A DNA stretch of 63,470 nucleotides, the filler included, from Reclinomonas americana ATCC 50394 (Eukaryota), in the NCBI GenBank assembly GCA_048213135.1. It is 12 parts of 11 records of this genome, joined end to end, with 100 filler letters (N's around TTAATTAATTAA, not from the genome) between each part and the next. Parts side by side here need not be neighbours in the genome. Positions count along the whole stretch, not along the records: positions 27,275 to 31,240 come from PS015964.1; positions 31,341 to 33,077 come from AFZH01016287.1; positions 33,178 to 38,308 come from PS015965.1; 9 more parts are not named here. One strand, written 5' to 3'. This document shows positions 27,339 to 36,185 of the stretch, piece after piece. Every line of letters begins with the position of its first letter. The stretch's first letter is position 1. A program made the translations under genes and the position numbers. The notes under the pieces are model-generated. The model saw only the letters and a program-made list of their open reading frames with translations, ran no database searches and was not told where the DNA came from.

Positions 27339-28937
27339 GTACGGGATCCCCTCTAACTGTCGCCACACTGCATTCATTCGTTCTGAGCCTGAGATGAAAA
27401 GATGGTCTCATGCTGTATCTGTTCTAAGTGCGCATTTTGCCTGTTGGCACTGACATGCCTCTCTCGTTCCCTTCCTCCCCCTCCCCCTTTCCCTTCCCTC
27501 CCCCTCCCCCTTCCCCCATATCCACAGAGTCGCCTCGAATACGAACTGCGCTTCCAGGAGTACGTCGAGTTGATCCGCCGCGGACAGGTGATGGAGGCAC
27601 TCACCTACTTCCAGAAGCACCTGGCAGCCGGCGCGGTTCCGGTGGGCGGCGAGGGCGGTGAGGGCGACGACACCGCCATGCTGGTCGACTCGACGGGGGA
27701 GGAGTCGGCGGAGGTGGTGCGAGCCAGGGACATCAAGACGGCGATGGGATGCTTGGTGTTCTCGCCAGTGACATCGTGCCCCAAGTACAGGGTGTGTGTT
27801 GAGGAGAAGAGGGCGGGCGGGGGGAAGGGAGACAAATGATTCCATGCTCATTGTCCACTCTTCTTCTTCTCTTATCGCTTGTTTGTCGTTCCTCACCTCG
27901 CTTTTCTTCGTTCTCCTTGCTGTCAGGGCCTGCCGGATTCTCATCTCTTCAACTTTCTCCTTCCTGTTATCACATTCTTTTTCGTCGCCGCTCTTGTCAG
28001 TCCCTGCAGCGGTTGCTCTCCTACGCTCATTTTCCTTACTCGCCACCCTCTTCTTTATTTTAACGTCCTCCATGTTGCATCACTCTCTTGCATCCAGTCC
28101 AGTCGGCTTTCGTGATTCGTTGCTCTCTCGTTTCTATGCCTTCTCATTACTTCTCTCTTCTCCCTTCCCTCGACATCACCGCCACCTTTCCCCTCACCCT
28201 TCCCGCCAAATTCTCCTGCTAACTTCCTTCTTGCCTTGCTGTCTCATCCTTTCCTCCTGTCTCGCTTCGCGACTGCTCTGTGGTGTCGCACTCCCATTGC
28301 ATTTCCTTCTCTCTCCACCCTCGTGCTGTTTGCAGCCTCTCTTCCACTCTCTTCTCTTTGCTCCTTTCCCCACCCCCTCCCCTCCTTCCCCTTTCCCCTC
28401 ACCCTTCCCCTTTGGCCTCCTCAGGAAATCTTCGACGCCGACCTCCGCTGGGCGCGCCTGGTCTCCGTGTTCCAACGCGAAGTCTGCAGCATGTACGGCC
28501 TCAGCGACACCTCGCTGCTGGAGCTGACTCTGCAAGCGGGTCTGTCGGCACTCAAGACACCGTTGCGTGCCGCCACCAACCACCCTCCCCCCTTTTTCTT
28601 TCTGGCGCACTCATCTCCTCGCTCTCTCTCTCTCTTCAGTTTCTGTGTGCACGAGGACTCGCGCGAGGCCAACTGCCCCATGTGCAATCGCACTCTCGGC
28701 GCCCTCGGCGCCCCGCTTCCGTTTGGCCGGCACACGCACTCGGTGCTCATTTGCCACCTGAGTGGGCGGGCCATGGACGAGAACAACCCGCCCATGTGTT
28801 TGCCAAACGGGCACGTGTACTCGCATCAGGCGCTGCTGGAGATGGCGCAGTCGAACGCCGACGGGTGCATCACGTGCCCGCGCACGAATCAGCGGTATCG
28901 GCTGGCGGATTTGCGCAAGGTGTACATTACGTCGTAG
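26682..28937 (+). CDS. MAEA: CTLH/GID E3 ligase subunit MAEA/Gid9/Fyv10 (middle exons lost in gap)
   Basis: MELEGQSFRAPFESLQILFR N-terminus; SRLEYELRFQEYVELIR (CTLH); LQAGLSALKTP; C-terminal degenerate RING (CPMC...SVLICHLSGRAMDENNPPMCLPNGHVYS...CPRT...RKVYI). Confidence 0.9.
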
Positions 28938-29274
28938 ACATATACAGGGAAAGATGAGAGATATGAGTGTACAGAGTGCCTGTGGTAATTGTACAGAGTG
29001 CCAGCGGTGAGAAGGTGGGATGCGCCTTGTGCTCAGTGGATGTTGACCGCACCACTCACAACGGAAATGTTACGTCGATACCGCAGACGAGACGTGGAAG
29101 GGGATGTGGTTCAGAGATCGCCTGATGGGGGAGAGTGGCAATGGAGATCTGCCCAAGTGAGAAGTGAGGAAAGGGTGAGAGCGCCAACAATCGCTATCAT
29201 GATCCGTTTCAGTGGTACTCGGGTCCATGCGTCAGCAGGATCCAGAGAAGGCAGATGCAGTTGTCTGCACACAT

Positions 29275-30165
29275 TTCGATATCGACGTCGATCGAGGTCT
29301 TCTGCTGTTGCTTGTCTCACTCACGCACGGCTGAATGCTGCTGCTGCCTGTTACTGCGCTTGCTGCTTTGCTCCTGCTGTGTGCACTGTAGTTGCAAACG
29401 TACGACGCGCAAAGAGCGACTTGTCCCGCGTTCATTGTCATCAGTCACTCCAGCAGGCGCCACTATGCTTCCCTCTCTACTGCGGCGGTCCCCACTGCTG
29501 CAACAGCAGCAACAGTCGATCTGCTATGGTGCACTGCTGTTTCGGCGATGGCTGTGAGAGTACGTACATGATATCGATTTCTATTGAGGTCTTCTCCTGT
29601 TGGTTGTCTCACTCACGCACAACTGGATAACTATGCCATTGTTGTTGTTCTTGTGATGCTGCTGCTGCTACTGCTGCTGTACACTGTAGTTGTAGACTTC
29701 CGACGCCCACAGGACGATTTGCCGTCCATTGTCATCAGTCACTCCAGGCGCAAGCAGGTCCCCCACTTTTCTTCCCTCTCTGCTGCGGCGGTCCCCACTG
29801 CAGCAACAGCAACAGTCGATCTGCGTTGGAGCACTGCCGTTTCGGCGATGGAGAGGAACTGATATCGATTTCGAATTTCTATTGAGGTCTTCTCCTGTTG
29901 GTTGTCTCACTCACGCACAGCTGGATAACTATGCTATTGTTGTTGCTCTTGCTGCGGCTCCTGGCTGCTGCTGCTGCTGCTACACTGTAGTTGTAGACTT
30001 CCGACGCCTGCAGGACGATTTGCCGTCTTGTCATCAGTCACTCGAGGCGCAAACTGTGTTTGCCCACCATGCTTCCCTCTCTGCTGCGGCGGTCCCCACT
30101 GCTGCAGCAACAGCAACAGCAGCAGTCGATCTGCTATGGTGCACTGCTGTTTCGGCGATGGAGAG
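29275..30165 (+). repeat. Three tandem ~290-bp copies of the Xsc upstream region plus presequence start
   Basis: Unit gaggtcttctcctgttggttgtctcactcacgcac...ctgcggcggtccccactgc...tttcggcgatgg occurs three times with substitutions. Confidence 0.88.
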
Positions 30166-30428
30166 GCTCTGAGAGTGCCGCAAGCAACAGCAACAATGGT
30201 GGTGCCTCTGATGATCCGTTTCAGCGAAGACGATGCACGCCGAGTGAGGCGTTTGTGGAGACGCTGAGGTCGAGGGGGTGAGTGGTGAAGGGGAGGGAAA
30301 GGGGAGGAAAAGGGGAGGAAAAGGGGAGGGAAAGTGGGGGAAAGGGTGAGTGTGTGGGAGAAAGAGAGTGTGTGGGTGAGAGTGAGGAAGGGTGATGAGA
30401 AGTGTTCTCAGAGCGTTCTCTCTCTCTC

Positions 30429-30461
<33 letters not shown>

Positions 30462-30688
30462 CTGACGACGAGGAAGAGTGAGAGAGACTTTGAGTGCTTG
30501 TCTCTGTGTGTTTTGTGTGTGTTTTGAAGTTATTGTGTGCACTCACTGTGCGCTGATTGTTGAGACTCGTGTGTGTGTGTGTGTGCGTGTGTTCGCGGGA
30601 ATGACTGGAGATAAAGGTTTTCGACTCTCTCTCTCTGTCTGTCTTTATGAGTGCGTGCCTCCCTGTGTCTCTCTGTCTCGCTCACTCG

Positions 30689-30724
<36 letters not shown>

Positions 30725-33700
30725 TGCTCACTCTGCGTCTCTCACATTGATTCTCGTATTGTTTCCCAATCTGATGACACTCACACCCTCGCGCGCTGTC
30801 TCTCCCACCCACCCTGCTCTCTCCCTGTCTGTGTCTCACACTCTGACTGTCTCCACCTATCGTTCCCCACAGTCGCTTGTCACTGTCTCGCGCTGATGCA
30901 GTATCACTTATTTTTCCTCTGCTTTCTCTTTTCTTCCTCAGTGTGCGACACGTGTTTGGTCTCCCGGGATCGGCGTTCATGGACCCGTTGGATCTGTTCC
31001 CCGCAGCCGGCATCCGATTTGTCAGCGTGCAGCATGAGCAGGTGAATGACAGTCGCGTTTGTCATCGTCTTCTCCTCATTGTCTTCTTCTTCACCACCTC
31101 TTCCCCTTTGTGCTTGTTTTCTTGTCCTTGTTCTTTGTCTTGTTGCTCCTCCTCCTCCTTTTCCTCCTCCTCCTCCTCCTCCTGCTCCTCCTCCTCTCTC
31201 TCTCTCTCGTCTCTCTCTCTCTCGTCTCTCGTCGTCTACTNNNNNNNNNNNNNNNNNNNNNNNNNNNNNNNNNNNNNNNNNNNNTTAATTAATTAANNNN
31301 NNNNNNNNNNNNNNNNNNNNNNNNNNNNNNNNNNNNNNNNCTCTCTCTCTACGTCTCTACTCTCTCTCTCTCTCTCTCTCGTCTCTTCGTCTCGTCTCGT
31401 CTCTCGTCTCTCTTCTTCTTCTTCTTCTTCTTCTTCTTCTTCTTCTTCTTCTTCTTCTCTTCCTCCTCGTCCTCGTCTTCTGTGTTTCTGTTGGCCTCTT
31501 GGGCATCCCTCCATCCTGCTTCCACTCTGCCGCCCTGTCACTTTCCTTTTCTTGATCTTCTTGTCCGTGCTCTTTGTCTCCTGTTCCTCCTCCTTTCTCT
31601 TCTTCCTCCCTCCCTCCCTCTCCTTGTCTCACTCGCTCCTGCAGGCAGCAGCATTGATGGCCGACGGATACGCCAAGGTTCAGCCACACTCCAATTTCTT
31701 TCCTCCTTCCGCAACTCACCTGCCATCCCCTGCAGGCAAGCGGTCTGGTCGGCGTCTGCGTGGCGCAGAACGGACCCGGCGTGTCGAACATGGTCACGGG
31801 TGTGGCGGCGGCCAACATGTCGAACTCGCCAGTGTTGGCGGTGACGCCGGAGGTGGCCACTGGGCAGATCGGGCAGGGTGGCTTGCAGGTGCGGAGGGAA
31901 GATTGATGAAGGGTTTCTCACGCGTGTGCGTTTGTCGCGGGAGTCTGTCACTTGCTCAACTGGATGCTTGTTCCTTTTGTGTCTCCTCTCACACTCAACA
32001 CCCGCGGTTGTCTTGTCTCACTCGCAAGCCATTTTTAACAATCTGTCTTGTCACACTCTTCTCATGCGAGACTGTTTAATCCCTCTTTCGGTGTCTGGCA
32101 CTTGCTCACTCCCATGCTTCTTATGTCTATACGCGAGACTCGCAGGTGTCTGTCACCTGCTCAATCGGATGCTGCTTATCATACTCTTTCTCATGCACTT
32201 CTCATGCGCGACTGTTAATCTCTCTGTTGGTGTCTTGTTACTCACTAGCATGCTTATTCTGTCGTCTCTCTTCTCATTCTTTTTCATGCAAGACTGCTTA
32301 TTCCTTGCTTCTCGTGTTGCCTCTTCTCTTTCATGTGAGAGATTCACGTTTGTGTGTTACTTGCTGAATCGGATGCTTCTTCTGTTTGTCACTCTTCACC
32401 CTTCTCATTTCGCCTTCTCACTCTTTTCTGCCTCTCCTTTCCCCTTTCCCCACCAGGAACTCGACAACATGTCCCTCTACCGCCCCATCACCAAGTCGCA
32501 AGTGCACGTCAACAACCCCGCGCGCATGGCCGAGCTGACCGGCCTCGCACTGGATCGCGCCGTGCGTCTGCGTGGTGCCTCGCAGATCAACATTCCTCGT
32601 GACTACTTTTACGGGGAGTATGAGTTCGCCGTGCCGCGACCGGTGATGCCGGAGATCCCGGCAGGTGAGTGTGGAAAGGGAGAAATGGGGAAAGGATGGG
32701 AAGGGGGAGGGTGGATGGTGATTTCTCTCAGTTCCTCCCCCACTCTCTCTCCCATTCTCTCCCCCCAATCTCTCCCCTGGCTCTCGCCCATGGCTCTCCC
32801 CTGTCTCTCCCTGTCTCTACCTGTCTCTCCCCCGTTATCTCATTCTCTCCCCCAGTCTCTCTCCCAGTCTCTCCCCCAGTCTCTCCCCCAGTCTCTCCCC
32901 CAGTCTCTCCCCCAGTCTCTCCCCCAGTCTCTCCCCCAGTCTCTCCCCCAGTCTCTCCCCAGTCTCTCCCCAGTCTCTCCCCCAGTCTCTCCCCCAGTCT
33001 CTCCCCTGTCTCTCCCCCTGTCTCTCCCCCATCCTCTCCCCCATCCTCTCCCCCATTCTCTCCCCATTCTCTCCCCANNNNNNNNNNNNNNNNNNNNNNN
33101 NNNNNNNNNNNNNNNNNNNNNTTAATTAATTAANNNNNNNNNNNNNNNNNNNNNNNNNNNNNNNNNNNNNNNNNNNNATTCTGTCCCTGTCTGCCCCCCA
33201 TTCTTCCCCAGTCTCTCCCCCTGACGCTCACCACACCGCTACACCCCAGGTGGTCCCAAATCACTGGAGGCCGCCGCCGAACTCATCGTGGCCGCCAAGA
33301 ATCCCGTGCTGCTGGTGGGCAGCGGCATTGCGCAGTCGGCGACCGCCTACGTTGCGTGCACTTCTTTGGCGAGTCATTTCCTCTCTCCCTTCCGCTCATT
33401 CGCCATGCCCGCAGCGTGAGGCGCAAGCGCTGGCCTCGTTCCTCACCATTCCGGTGATGACCACGTACCTGCACAATGATGCCTTCCCGAGTGATCATCC
33501 GATGATGTGTGGTGCGTGTGGCACCGCCATTGCCTCTCTTGTTTTCTCGATCCTCAACGCGTTCGTTGGCGTCAGGCGCTCTCGGCTACATGGGCTCGCA
33601 GGCCGCCATGAAGATTGTCGCGCAGTCGGACCTGGTGATTGCCCTCGGCAGCCGCCTCTCGCCGATTTCGACGACTCCGCAGTACGGCTTCAACTATTGG

Positions 33701-34286
33701 CCGGAGGTGAGAGTGGGGGAGGAGGCAGGGGATGGGCGTGAAGGGTGTGAGAAGTGGAATCAGGCCTGTCTGTTTCTCCGTGAAATGGAGAGTGCAATCA
33801 GGTCTCTCACATGGAGAATGCCGTCTGCTCTCTATTTCTCTTTGCGAAATCGGGGAATGGAATCGGGTCACATTGTCGCTCTCTCTCTCTCTAATCGAGG
33901 TCGCAGTCTGGAGTCTTTCTTGTTCTCTCTGAAATGGAGAATGCACAATGCATCTCACCACCCTCCTGTCTCCCGCATAACGCAGAGAGCCAAGATCATC
34001 CAGATTGAGGCCGAAGAGCGCCGTCTGGGATTGACCCGACCAGTGGACGTGCCGATCAATGGCGACGCTGGACTAGCTGCGCGTGCCATTCTGGAGTACT
34101 TGATGGTGATCCGCGTGTGTGTGTGCTTAAAGTGATGAAAGGTGCTGTTCTCATGTGGAGTCGATACAGGTGCATCGCGATCGTGTGGCCTGCCTGCGTA
34201 CGCGTGAGTCGCGCGCTGCCGACCTTGCTCGCTTCCGCAATGCAGTTGAGTTGGAAGGGAGGGAGAGAGAGGACAGTGAGACGAGA

Positions 34287-34331
<45 letters not shown>

Positions 34332-36185
34332 TCAGGCTGGCTTGCAGGCACAAAGGAAGGCATTCAGATGGAGGGAGAACTGTCTGCGTGGTTGTTTCTG
34401 TGTTCTCTCTCTCCCTGGCTGTCTGTTTGCTGACATTACGTGCAGTGGGAGAAGGAGCTGGAGCGCATGACATTTGGACCTGGCCCGGCTGGACTCATCA
34501 AGCCGCGCCACGCGTTGAAGGAGTTGCAGCGGGGTGAGTGCGACAATTAACGTCCTCAGCTTCTCGCTTTGTCTCACACTACGTGCAGCCATTCCCGACA
34601 ATGCCATTGTGTCTGTGGACTCTGGTGCCGTGTGCGCGCTCTCCGCCAGGTTTGGTTCAAAATGCAGCGCGCTTCACAGCAAGATTGGCTCACGATGTCG
34701 TATCGCGCAGCTACCTGAGCTTCAAGCAGCCGCGTAGCATGCTGAGCTCGGTCTCGTTTGCCAATGTGGGCTACGCCTTCCCGGCCGCCCTCGGCGCCAA
34801 GGTAGCTATGGGAGACGAAGAGGATGCCCTTTCTCTCTCCCTCTGTATGTGTGTGTGGCGCTCTCTCTTTTGCTCTGTTGTACACCTGTCTTTTGCTGTG
34901 CTCGTCGCTCTTTCGTTCCTCTCTTCTCTCTCTCTCTCTCTCGCTGTCTTTGCTCCGCTTCTCTGTCATTTTCTCTTCTTCTCTCTCTGTCTTCTGCTCT
35001 GCTTGTCTCCCAGTCATTTGCTCTGCTCATCGCTCTGTCGCCTTTATCCTCTCGTCCTCCTCTTCATGCCTTTCTTCTCTCTCTCTCTGTCTCTCTCTCG
35101 GTCTCTCTCTATCGGTCTTTGCTCTGCTTCTCTGTCATTTTCTCTTCTTCACTCTCTGTCTTCTGCTCTGCTTGTCTCCTATTCTTTTCCTCTGCTCGTT
35201 GCTCTGTCACCTTCATCCTCTCGTCCTCCTTTTCATGCCTCTCTTCTCTCTTTCTCTCTCTCTCTCTCTCTGTCTCTCTCTATCTGACTTTTTCCCTGTT
35301 TGTCTCTCTGTCTTCTGCTCCGTTTGTCTCCCAGTCTTTTGCTCTGCTCTTCTTTCTATCACTCTCTCCCTTCTCTCTCTTTCCCCCGTGTCTCTCCGTC
35401 TCTTCTCTGTCTTTTGCTCTGTTCGCCTCTCTGTTTTTGTTGCCACTGTCTCTTTCGTTCTCTCTCTACTCTCTCCCCCCGTCCCTCTCTCCTTCTCCTC
35501 TTCTTGCCTAATTTGCCTCTCACGCAGATGGCCTCACCCGAGCGACCAGTGATCGTCTACGTCGGCGACGGCGCGTGGGGCATGAGTCTGGCCGAGACGC
35601 TGACTGCACTGCGCGAGAAGATTCCTGTCACCGTCGTCGTGTTGCGTCAGCTGCGAGTGAGGTGCGAGTGGCGGCCTTGACACTCATTTTCTGCTGTGCA
35701 GCTTCCGCAACAATCAGTGGGGCGCCGAAAAGAAGAACCAAGTCATGTGGTTTGGTGATCGGTGCGTGGATCAGAAACGAGGGCGCAAGTTGCTTCTCCT
35801 TCACCCATTTCTCCCTCCACAGCTACGTCGGCACGCAGCTCGACTCCAACCCCTCGTTCGCCGACATTGCGCACGCCATGGGTGTGCACGGCATCCAAGT
35901 CACGGCTGCCGACCAGGTCGGCGACGCCCTCCGCGACGGCCTGCGACACCAGGCGGATGGAGAAATGACGGGTTTGTGAGCGTGCGAGCACCGCGGAAGA
36001 GAATACCCTGCTCACTTTTATTGGCTCAAACAGTGATCGAGGTGTGCCTGACCAAGGAGCTCGGCGACCCGATGCTGCGCCGCGACGCCATCAAGCTGCC
36101 GGTGCGCCTGCTCTCCAGGTACAAGGAGTACACGGTGCCGGTGGAGTCCACGACCGGACAGCCGACTGATTTGCAGCGGTCGTGA
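30069..36185 (+). CDS. xsc: Sulfoacetaldehyde acetyltransferase (ThDP-dependent, Xsc family), 17 exons, putative mitochondrial presequence
   Basis: Spliced product contains [64 protein letters not shown], the ThDP motif GDGAWGMS...[10 protein letters not shown] and ELGDP..RRDA, which are characteristic of Xsc rather than acetolactate synthase. All introns are GT-AG. Confidence 0.88.
32845..33076. repeat. ~12-bp intronic minisatellite (ccccagtctctc)n
   Basis: Directly visible tandem array inside an Xsc intron. Confidence 0.9.

What the first reader, a model, noticed from the sequence alone, without database searches (positions are those of the whole stretch)
30069..36185. Bacterial-type taurine-catabolism enzyme Xsc domesticated in a eukaryote (16 introns, mitochondrial-type presequence)
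Seen: a complete spliced Xsc-like protein, preceded by a ~55-aa extension whose first ~33 residues ([12 protein letters not shown]...LLFRRWRGS) are Arg/Leu/Ser-rich and lack acidic residues. Known: Xsc converts sulfoacetaldehyde plus phosphate to acetyl phosphate plus sulfite, the desulfonation step of bacterial taurine/isethionate degradation. The introns rule out contamination. Inference: lateral acquisition enabling organosulfonate use, and acetyl phosphate production in a mitochondrion-type organelle.
Basis: partly seen in the sequence, partly recalled or inferred. Interest (0 to 1): 0.78.

Follow-up and report, generated by a model that had tools for sequence, protein, structure and literature searches.

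The report
Intron-rich eukaryotic Xsc gene, old clade
This is a real, 17-exon nuclear gene for a sulfoacetaldehyde acetyltransferase (Xsc)-type enzyme, but it belongs to a clade of such genes already present in many eukaryotes, so it is not a recent private acquisition from bacteria.

Summary
At 30069-36185 (+) there is a complete gene of 17 exons and 16 GT-AG introns that encodes 646 aa. Each exon-bearing ORF piece that matched any family matched Xsc best (9 of 10 pieces). A bacterial-Xsc HMM built here scores the spliced protein 764 bits, against 288 or less for 20 other ThDP paralogues.

The "lateral acquisition" reading is only partly right. Xsc homologues occur in diplonemids, a dinoflagellate, amoebozoans, Thecamonas, Ancoracysta and a jellyfish, and in many marine eukaryotic transcripts. 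Two site-heterogeneous ML trees place the window protein inside this eukaryotic clade (99/99 and 100/99). It carries the clade's private characters:
- the W[FY]GDR motif (87 of 88 eukaryotic rows, 0 of 130 bacterial);
- a 14-residue C-terminal GQPxD tail.

An AU test did not reject a position basal to all Xsc (p 0.185).

The N-terminal extension is basic and acid-free, like those of its relatives. It is not detectably amphipathic, and it lies in a 301-bp tandem repeat. Mitochondrial import is therefore plausible but unproven. No pathway partner lies in the window. Verdict: a divergent new member of a known, already annotated but unstudied eukaryotic Xsc group.

The parts
30069..36185 (+). Whole Xsc-like gene from ATG to TGA: 17 exons, 16 GT-AG introns, 646 aa
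   Evidence: Gene model, guided by tblastn and NCBIfam hits
30069..30277 (+). Exon 1: N-terminal extension (56 aa) plus the start of the Pyr domain ([14 protein letters not shown])
   Evidence: This piece alone had no NCBIfam hit; tblastn E 0.035
30069..30167 (+). First 33 codons (MLPSLLRR...FRRWRGS): basic, free of acidic residues, with a run of 7 Gln; putative targeting peptide
   Evidence: 5 R, 0 D/E; hydrophobic moment 0.49, not above shuffles
29460..30166 (+). 301-bp tandem repeat (2.3 copies) that duplicates the 5' flank and the first ~100 nt of the CDS. Copy 1 keeps an ATG at 29465 and a 31-codon ORF; copy 2 has TTT in place of ATG
30942..31041 (+). Exon 2. It holds the conserved HEQ, with the Glu codon at 31036-31038 (the ThDP-activating Glu of this enzyme superfamily; that role is recalled)
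31241..31340 (.). Scaffold join (N44-TTAATTAATTAA-N44) inside intron 2
31645..31677 (+). Exon 3 ([11 protein letters not shown])
31736..31888 (+). Exon 4
32457..32664 (+). Exon 5, the longest internal exon; used as query
33078..33177 (.). Scaffold join inside intron 5
33250..33350 (+). Exon 6
33415..33511 (+). Exon 7
33576..33706 (+). Exon 8
33986..34105 (+). Exon 9
34170..34244 (+). Exon 10 ([25 protein letters not shown]); placed by eye against bacterial Xsc; weak GTTGAG donor
34446..34533 (+). Exon 11
34589..34649 (+). Exon 12. It carries VDSGA where nearly all other Xsc have TDIGN
34711..34801 (+). Exon 13
35528..35640 (+). Exon 14. It starts the ThDP-binding motif (GDG at 35564-35572). 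The donor is GTTGCG; a rival GTGAGG donor lies 24 nt downstream
35702..35761 (+). Exon 15. NN at the end of the GDG-X26-NN motif (35709-35714); eukaryote-clade motif WFGDR (35748-35761, completed by base 35823)
35823..35971 (+). Exon 16
36034..36185 (+). Exon 17 with the stop codon. The last 14 codons (36141-36182, [14 protein letters not shown]) are the eukaryote-specific C-terminal tail
27393..28934 (+). Upstream neighbour: a CTLH-domain gene (GID/CTLH-complex type), on the same contig piece (27275-31240) as exons 1-2

Best explanation
The locus is an intact, intron-rich nuclear gene of an unidentified eukaryote. It encodes a divergent member of a eukaryote-wide clade of sulfoacetaldehyde acetyltransferase (Xsc, EC 2.3.3.15) homologues.

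Shown: the gene structure, Xsc-family membership, placement in the eukaryotic clade, and retention of the ThDP-binding motif GDG-X26-NN, the HEQ glutamate and 87% of near-invariant Xsc positions.

Inferred: the protein binds ThDP and Mg2+, adds sulfoacetaldehyde to the ThDP ylide, expels sulfite, and transfers the resulting acetyl group to phosphate to give acetyl phosphate. The basic N-terminal extension, which almost all eukaryotic relatives also have, sends it into the mitochondrion. There sulfite could be oxidised and acetyl phosphate used.

The gene was inherited within eukaryotes from an old acquisition, or from an ancestral gene, shared with diplonemids, dinoflagellates, amoebozoans, apusomonads, Provora and a cnidarian. 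This lineage did not take it up from a bacterium.
For: Structure: 17 exons, 16 of 16 introns GT...CAG, open 646-codon frame.

Family:
- 9 of 10 ORF pieces hit TIGR03457/PRK07525 best; the exon 1 piece hit nothing.
- The bacterial-Xsc HMM built here gives the window 764 bits, 10 eukaryotic homologues 841-982 (7 of them from named species), and 20 other ThDP paralogues of three bacteria 95-288.
- 55-58% identity over about 590 aa to homologues.

Eukaryotic clade:
- Named eukaryotic homologues are listed, with lineages.
- Careful IQ-TREE (LG+C20 PMSF), 61 rows: 33 eukaryote-type rows plus the window form a clade at 99/99, sister to 12 bacterial rows (95/88).
- Second careful tree without far outgroups, 50 rows: clade at 100/99, window + P0098 at 97/76, that pair with the P0155/P0072/P0107 group at 94/95.

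Rare shared characters:
- W[FY]GDR in 87 of 88 eukaryote-clade rows, 0 of 130 bacterial rows, and present in the window.
- C-terminal [GQ]QP[VTIL]D within the last 30 aa in 71 of 88 against 0 of 130. Of the other 17 eukaryotic rows, 16 show variants of the tail and 1 ends at the LGDP region without it. The motif is present in the window.
- Tail length from LGDP to the C-terminus: 41 in the window, eukaryotic median 41, bacterial median 27.

Function: GDG-X26-NN and HEQ are present. 167 of 191 columns that are at least 95% conserved among 218 Xsc are kept.

Nuclear origin: exons 1-2 share a contig with a CTLH gene, and all Pfam-recognisable neighbours are eukaryote-type.

Targeting: 5 Arg and 0 Asp/Glu in the first 33 aa. 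The extensions of 74 eukaryotic relatives average 5.1 R+K and 0.5 D+E in their first 30 aa or fewer.
Against: - FastTree on 239 rows put the window basal to all other Xsc (support 96 for the rest). The AU test did not reject that position (lnL 29.6 lower, p 0.185). The window's terminal branch is long (1.2 against a median of 0.39).
- 24 of 191 near-invariant positions are changed, including TDIGN to VDSGA and GNCGY to ANVGY. Xsc activity is therefore not assured.
- The full protein could not be scored against the curated TIGR03457 cut-off of 676.4 bits. The nine exon pieces sum to 424 bits.
- The presequence shows no amphipathic signal (hydrophobic moment 0.49; 82% of 1000 shuffles reach it). 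It holds a 7-Gln run and lies in a tandem repeat.
- 73 of the 88 'eukaryote-clade' rows are unnamed. They are called eukaryotic only because they sit in that clade and because of their length (median 629 aa against 598 for the bacterial clade); many sit on contigs of about 2 kb.
- There is no RNA evidence for any splice site.
- No aminotransferase, Pta, AckA or sulfite-handling gene was found among 133 window ORFs scanned. The rest of the genome is not held.
Confidence: 0.72

Rival explanations
1. One reading: a lineage-specific lateral transfer of a bacterial xsc gene into this eukaryote, followed by intron gain and addition of a presequence.
For: FastTree put the window protein outside both the eukaryotic and the bacterial clades. 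The AU test does not reject that position (p 0.185). No relative closer than 61% identity exists for exon 5 among 1.84 billion representatives.
Against: Two careful trees nest it in the eukaryotic clade (99/99 and 100/99). It shares WFGDR and the GQPxD C-terminal tail, which none of 130 bacterial rows has. Sixteen introns and a long branch fit long residence in a eukaryotic nucleus.
Confidence: 0.08
2. The gene descends from Xsc but its product no longer desulfonates sulfoacetaldehyde. A fast-evolving ThDP enzyme now acts on another aldehyde or 2-oxo substrate.
For: It has the long terminal branch and the lowest HMM score among the eukaryote-clade rows tested, apart from the two long-branch rows P0187 and P0236. 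24 of 191 near-invariant positions are changed, several of them in the TDIGN and GNCGY loops of the PP domain. In those loops it resembles the deep-branching Xsc-like rows P0219 and P0241.
Against: 87% of near-invariant positions, the cofactor motifs and the clade-specific tail are kept. There is no frameshift or stop in 17 exons. No Xsc structure is solved that would show which residues contact the sulfonate.
Confidence: 0.15
3. The enzyme is a genuine Xsc but is not mitochondrial. It is cytosolic or goes to another compartment, and the first 33 codons are an accident of the local tandem duplication or a mis-called 5' end.
For: The presequence lies in a 301-bp repeat whose other copies are non-functional fragments. 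It gives no amphipathic signal. It contains a 7-Gln run, which is unusual in presequences (recalled). The 5' end has no RNA support.
Against: There is no other in-frame ATG upstream of the conserved core. 75 of 85 eukaryotic relatives with a recognisable SEAFVE anchor have 20 or more residues before it, and these stretches are rich in R/K and poor in D/E. This fits a shared organellar location.
Confidence: 0.3
4. Artefact: a bacterial contaminant, a pseudogene, or a chimaera made by joining three contigs.
For: The gene spans three contig pieces joined by artificial linkers.
Against: Introns interrupt the reading frame within each contig piece. Exon order and phase are consistent across both joins. 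The frame is open throughout. Eukaryotic genes flank it on the same pieces.
Confidence: 0.03

Closest known systems
Bacterial sulfoacetaldehyde acetyltransferase Xsc (EC 2.3.3.15; NCBIfam TIGR03457 / PRK07525), e.g. the copies in Castellaniella denitrificans, Comamonas testosteroni and Cupriavidus fetched here (L037, L060, L021)
   Same: The same three-domain ThDP enzyme, colinear over the whole length. Identity is about 51-54% to bacterial-type metagenomic homologues. HEQ and GDG-X26-NN are kept. It is the best-scoring family for every exon piece that matched anything.
   Different: The window gene has 16 introns, about 38 more N-terminal residues than the bacterial median, and a 14-residue C-terminal tail. 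It has WFGDRY where bacteria have DFY..RF. 24 near-invariant positions are changed. There is no adjacent pta or sulfite-exporter gene; the bacterial pta linkage is recalled and was not examined here.
Eukaryotic Xsc homologues annotated automatically in public records: Thecamonas trahens XP_013752668.1, Diplonema papillatum, Rhopilema esculentum ('sulfoacetaldehyde acetyltransferase-like'), and EukProt/MMETSP/MERC transcripts
   Same: The same clade in two careful trees. They share the WFGDR motif, the GQPxD C-terminal tail (absent only in Thecamonas among the rows inspected) and basic N-terminal extensions.
   Different: Identity is only 52-58% to any of them and the branch is long. No close orthologue was found. 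The window protein has the most changed conserved positions among the named members (167 of 191 against 177 of 191 for Thecamonas).
Acetolactate synthase large subunit (IlvB/AHAS) and other ThDP enzymes of the pyruvate-oxidase family
   Same: The same fold superfamily. These are the closest solved structures to Xsc by sequence (BbmA 8x3x and AHAS entries).
   Different: They score far lower: exon 5 gives 63 bits for Xsc against 10 for AHAS, and paralogues score 288 bits or less against 764. They form the outgroup in the tree.

Membership tests
Xsc (sulfoacetaldehyde acetyltransferase, TIGR03457/PRK07525) | Best match to the Xsc models rather than to AHAS, pyruvate oxidase, IolD and the like | tested here: met
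   9 of 9 exon pieces with any hit have an Xsc model on top; a tenth piece (exon 1) had no hit. The HMM built here gives 764 bits against 288 or less for 20 paralogues.
Xsc (sulfoacetaldehyde acetyltransferase, TIGR03457/PRK07525) | Full-length score above the curated equivalog cut-off (676.4 bits) | not testable with these tools
   The spliced protein cannot be handed to the library scan. Nine unspliced pieces sum to 424 bits and leave several exons out.
Xsc (sulfoacetaldehyde acetyltransferase, TIGR03457/PRK07525) | ThDP/Mg-binding motif GDG-X(24-27)-NN and the cofactor-activating Glu (HEQ) | tested here: met
   [30 protein letters not shown] and VQHEQ are present in the model. The role of these residues is recalled from the enzyme superfamily.
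Xsc (sulfoacetaldehyde acetyltransferase, TIGR03457/PRK07525) | Conservation of positions nearly invariant in the family | tested here: inconclusive
   167 of 191 columns that are at least 95% conserved in 218 Xsc are kept. The 24 changes include TDIGN to VDSGA.
Xsc (sulfoacetaldehyde acetyltransferase, TIGR03457/PRK07525) | Placement inside the Xsc clade of a ThDP-enzyme tree | tested here: met
   The core Xsc clade including the window has support 100/99. AHAS-like paralogues fall outside it.
Xsc (sulfoacetaldehyde acetyltransferase, TIGR03457/PRK07525) | Phosphate-dependent release of sulfite and formation of acetyl phosphate from sulfoacetaldehyde | not testable with these tools
   This needs an enzyme assay.
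Eukaryotic Xsc clade | Groups with named eukaryotic sequences to the exclusion of bacterial Xsc | tested here: met
   Support is 99/99 (61 rows) and 100/99 (50 rows). The AU test does not reject a basal position (p 0.185), and FastTree gave that basal position.
Eukaryotic Xsc clade | W[FY]GDR motif after the NN of the ThDP motif | tested here: met
   87 of 88 eukaryotic-clade rows, 0 of 130 bacterial rows; the window has WFGDR.
Eukaryotic Xsc clade | C-terminal extension ending in ES.T(G/E)QP.D-type motif | tested here: met
   71 of 88 rows match exactly, 16 more show variants and 1 lacks the tail; 0 of 130 bacterial rows match. The window has [13 protein letters not shown]. Tail length is 41, equal to the eukaryotic median.
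Mitochondrial matrix-targeting presequence | N-terminal stretch rich in Arg/Lys, hydroxylated and hydrophobic residues, without acidic residues | tested here: met
   The first 33 aa hold 5 R, 0 D/E, 7 L and 3 S/T.
Mitochondrial matrix-targeting presequence | Ability to form a positively charged amphipathic helix | tested here: not met
   The maximum hydrophobic moment (11-residue window, 100 degrees) is 0.49. 82% of 1000 shuffles reach it. This is a crude test.
Mitochondrial matrix-targeting presequence | Positive call by a trained predictor (TargetP, MitoFates) or experimental import | not testable with these tools
   No such predictor is on hand.
Acetolactate synthase large subunit (TIGR00118) | Best match to AHAS models and grouping with AHAS | tested here: not met
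   AHAS models score 10-38 bits where Xsc models score 25-94 on the same pieces. AHAS-like paralogues form the outgroup.

The most novel reading that the evidence does not exclude
The window gene is one sample of an unrecognised eukaryotic trait: a mitochondrion-targeted Xsc clade with its own conserved C-terminal tail. It is spread over at least six major eukaryotic groups, including an animal (a scyphozoan jellyfish). That would mean many heterotrophic protists and some metazoans can themselves cleave the C-S bond of taurine-, isethionate- or sulfoacetate-derived sulfoacetaldehyde and make acetyl phosphate inside mitochondria. This step is treated as bacterial in the papers I could search.
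Probability: 0.4. Interest if true: 0.7.

Novelty: new member of a known kind. Interest (0 to 1): 0.42.

Why it matters
For this window alone the result is modest. It is a correctly recognised but ordinary, divergent member of a gene group that public annotation already labels as Xsc in Thecamonas, Diplonema and a jellyfish.

The wider pattern is more interesting. The eukaryotic sequences form one well-supported clade with basic N-terminal extensions and a private C-terminal motif. Seven full-text searches found no paper that discusses eukaryotic Xsc. The only trace was a row in a table of eukaryotic transcripts (PMC5012681; the table passage was seen).

If the enzymes are active, organosulfonate desulfonation and acetyl phosphate metabolism in mitochondria would need to be added to eukaryotic sulfur and carbon budgets, especially for marine heterotrophs that eat taurine-rich prey.

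Tried and rejected
- Whole-genome search for pathway partners: no genome is held for this window.
- RNA support: no RNA holder was listed.
- Taxon of the window: a WD40 paralogue query gave only generic hits of 54% identity or less. There are no telomere-like TTTAGGG or CCCTAAA arrays. Earlier-findings look-ups returned nothing. The organism stays unidentified.
- Closer orthologues: exon 5 found nothing above 61% identity, either against 5.8 billion clustered proteins (longer proteins only) or against 1.84 billion representatives.
- Intron-position comparison with other eukaryotic Xsc genes: the metagenome scan returned only uninterrupted matches in the 80 stretches kept (75 loci), so no intron-bearing locus was available. 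Eukaryotic genomes cannot be fetched with these tools.
- Solved Xsc structure to map the changed residues: none exists. The best matches are BbmA (E 3.5e-67) and AHAS entries.
- The FastTree topology with the window basal was set aside as probable long-branch attraction. Two site-heterogeneous trees and two rare characters disagree with it. The AU test did not reject it, and that is stated as evidence against my reading.
- My first C-terminal regular expression was wrong and gave 14 of 88. It was corrected.
- N-extension lengths for bacterial loci are unreliable, because I chose their start codons roughly. Even the database-predicted bacterial proteins have a median of 20 residues before SEAFVE. 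The true excess of the window extension is therefore about 38 residues, not 55.
- Literature: searches. One search was badly posed, and none of its listed papers held 'sulfoacetaldehyde'. Only passages of PMC5012681 and PMC11293860 were read; all other papers were seen as search listings only. No supplements were opened.


Full report
**1. What is there**

The window is a draft eukaryotic scaffold. It holds 31 N-runs and 11 artificial joins of the form N44-TTAATTAATTAA-N44, many microsatellites, and coding CTG/CAG runs.

tblastn with two Xsc proteins found colinear exon matches between 30069 and 36185 on the + strand. Ten stop-to-stop ORF pieces that carry these exons were scanned against NCBIfam. 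Nine had a sulfoacetaldehyde acetyltransferase model (TIGR03457 or PRK07525) as the best hit. Acetolactate synthase and other ThDP families scored far lower. The exon 1 piece had no hit.

I read the borders from the sequence and assembled a model of 17 exons. All 16 introns start with GT and end with CAG, and the frame is open for 646 codons. Both scaffold joins that fall in the gene lie in introns (2 and 5), and no exon is missing relative to bacterial Xsc.

Two donors are weak: GTTGAG after exon 10 and GTTGCG after exon 14. For exon 14 I chose the weaker donor because it restores the NN of the ThDP motif. No RNA run was available to check any junction (no RNA holder listed).

**2. It is a nuclear gene, not a contaminant**

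Introns interrupt the frame inside each of the three contig pieces. Exons 1-2 share a piece (27275-31240) with a CTLH-domain gene at 27393-28934.

Among 133 ORFs scanned with Pfam, the recognisable neighbours are WD40 repeat genes, an actin-family gene, a protein kinase, an MBOAT and two RNase T2 copies. None is a sulfonate-pathway partner. The rest of the genome is not held.

**3. Family membership**

The spliced protein was used only inside the script box. It is 55-58% identical over about 590 residues to its best homologues.

An HMM built from 82 bacterial Xsc proteins taken from named genomes gave these scores:

| Sequences | Bits |
|---|---|
| Window protein | 764 |
| 10 eukaryotic homologues (7 from named species) | 841-982 |
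| Deep Xsc-like lineages P0219, P0241 | 714, 643 |
| Generic ThDP protein P0245 | 448 |
| 20 other ThDP paralogues from three bacterial genomes | 95-288 |

The cofactor motif GDG-X26-NN and the HEQ glutamate are present. Of 191 alignment columns that are at least 95% conserved among 218 Xsc sequences, the window protein keeps 167; Thecamonas keeps 177. The 24 changes include TDIGN to VDSGA and GNCGY to ANVGY in the PP domain.

No Xsc structure is solved, so I cannot say whether these residues touch the substrate. The curated equivalog cut-off could not be tested, because a spliced sequence cannot be handed to that tool.

**4. Where it came from**

A search with the best eukaryote-like hit (P0002) showed that Xsc homologues are common in eukaryotic data. 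Look-ups gave names, and lineages were checked:
- six diplonemids: Diplonema papillatum, D. japonicum, Rhynchopus euleeides, Lacrimia lanifica, Artemidia motanka and Flectonema neradi;
- the dinoflagellate Polykrikos kofoidii;
- the amoebozoans Copromyxa protea and Stereomyxa;
- Ancoracysta twista (Provora);
- Thecamonas trahens (Apusozoa; already annotated as sulfoacetaldehyde acetyltransferase);
- the jellyfish Rhopilema esculentum, where the gene lies on a 4.37-Mb contig;
- MMETSP and MERC transcripts.

I added 80 bacterial loci from named genomes, 20 ThDP paralogues from three of those genomes as outgroup, and the full-length representatives found with exon 5.

FastTree on 239 rows recovered three groups: an Xsc clade; within it a eukaryote-type clade (88 rows, 15 of them tied to eukaryotic sources, median 629 aa); and a bacterial clade (130 rows, median 598 aa). 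It placed the window protein basal to both.

A careful IQ-TREE search under LG+C20 (PMSF) on 61 rows instead put the window protein inside the eukaryotic clade with support 99/99. That clade is sister to 12 proteobacterial, actinobacterial and spirochaete rows (95/88). A second careful tree on 50 rows, without the far outgroups and the two longest rows, gave 100/99 for the eukaryotic clade. It placed the window next to P0098 (97/76) and the MERC-containing P0107 group (94/95).

The AU test of the basal alternative gave a log-likelihood 29.6 lower, but p-AU was 0.185, so it is not rejected.

Independent of the tree, two rare characters tie the window protein to the eukaryotes:
- W[FY]GDR occurs in 87 of 88 eukaryotic-clade rows and in 0 of 130 bacterial rows.
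- A C-terminal extension carries a GQPxD-type motif. It matches exactly in 71 of 88 rows, 16 more show variants and 1 lacks the tail; 0 of 130 bacterial rows have it. Tail length is 41 residues in the window, with a eukaryotic median of 41 and a bacterial median of 27.

I conclude that the gene is a fast-evolving member of an old eukaryotic Xsc clade. With this sampling the donor of that clade is not identifiable.

**5. The N-terminal extension**

Fifty-six residues precede [10 protein letters not shown], and no other in-frame ATG exists. Database-predicted bacterial proteins already have a median of 20 residues before the SEAFVE anchor, the eukaryotic clade has 42, and the window has 58.

The first 33 residues hold 5 Arg and no acidic residue. 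This resembles the extensions of 74 eukaryotic relatives, which average 5.1 R+K and 0.5 D+E. A simple hydrophobic-moment test found no amphipathic signal beyond shuffles.

The segment holds a run of seven Gln. It lies in the last copy of a 301-bp tandem repeat. The first copy of that repeat keeps an ATG and a 31-codon ORF that ends at a GTGAGA, and the second copy has lost the ATG.

Mitochondrial import is the best guess because the whole clade carries such extensions, but it remains an inference.

**6. How it most likely works**

From established knowledge of Xsc (recalled, not from a call): ThDP adds to sulfoacetaldehyde, sulfite leaves, and the acetyl-ThDP intermediate is cleaved by phosphate to give acetyl phosphate.

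Shown here: the cofactor motifs and most conserved positions are kept in an intact gene.

Inferred: the activity itself, the organelle, the source of sulfoacetaldehyde (taurine, isethionate or sulfoacetate), and the fate of sulfite and acetyl phosphate.

**7. Novelty**

Seven full-text searches found no paper that treats eukaryotic Xsc.
- PMC5012681 lists Xsc in a table of eukaryotic plume transcripts (passage seen).
- PMC11293860 mentions only bacterial degradation (passage seen).
- The library lacks most subscription journals, so this is not proof of absence.

The window gene is a new, divergent member of a group that databases already label. The group itself looks under-studied.

**8. Verdict**

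Interest is 0.42. The more novel reading is a eukaryote-wide mitochondrial desulfonation step, which I give a probability of about 0.4.

Noticed in passing
window 29460-30166: A 301-bp tandem repeat duplicates the 5' flank and the first ~100 nt of the Xsc coding sequence. Copy 1 (ATG at 29465) encodes [30 protein letters not shown], then a stop overlapping a GTGAGA that could act as a splice donor in the same phase as exon 1. Copy 2 has lost the ATG.
   Followed up: partly
window 7579-20786 (+): At least five tandem paralogues of a WD40-repeat gene. Each ends in a conserved non-WD C-terminal block (...RCLVEIVLRCFLVEDAE.IVYRCSTDSRLCL). The nearest database proteins are only 54% identical or less.
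   Followed up: partly
window 56773-57546 and 59967-60464 (+): Two copies of a ribonuclease T2 gene lie about 3 kb apart and are separated by a scaffold join.
   Followed up: no
window, 11 places (e.g. 5720-5819, 31241-31340, 33078-33177): Artificial contig joins of the form N44-TTAATTAATTAA-N44 (stops in all six frames). Order and orientation across them rest on the assembler, not on sequence.
   Followed up: yes
L149:5941-7776: An intronless, N/K/I-rich Xsc of the eukaryotic type on a 23-kb metagenome contig packed with ORFs on both strands. It has the C-terminal ESSSGQPTDL and WFNNKY in place of WFGDRY. It falls inside the eukaryotic clade. It may be a compact eukaryote, an endosymbiont or a large virus.
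   Followed up: partly
P0187 and P0236 (proteins): Two very long-branch Xsc-like proteins (about 40% identical to the window protein) nest inside the eukaryotic clade. P0236 lies on contigs of 119-161 kb. They may be a neofunctionalised paralogue.
   Followed up: no
P0067: An animal, the scyphozoan jellyfish Rhopilema esculentum, carries an Xsc-like gene on a 4.37-Mb contig. L105, a 2.5-kb metagenome contig, encodes a near-identical protein.
   Followed up: partly
window 838-2196 (-): A long ORF made largely of poly-Gln/poly-Ala tracts. CTG-type trinucleotide runs recur through the window (12 CTGCTGCTGCTG hits, 0 on the other strand).
   Followed up: no
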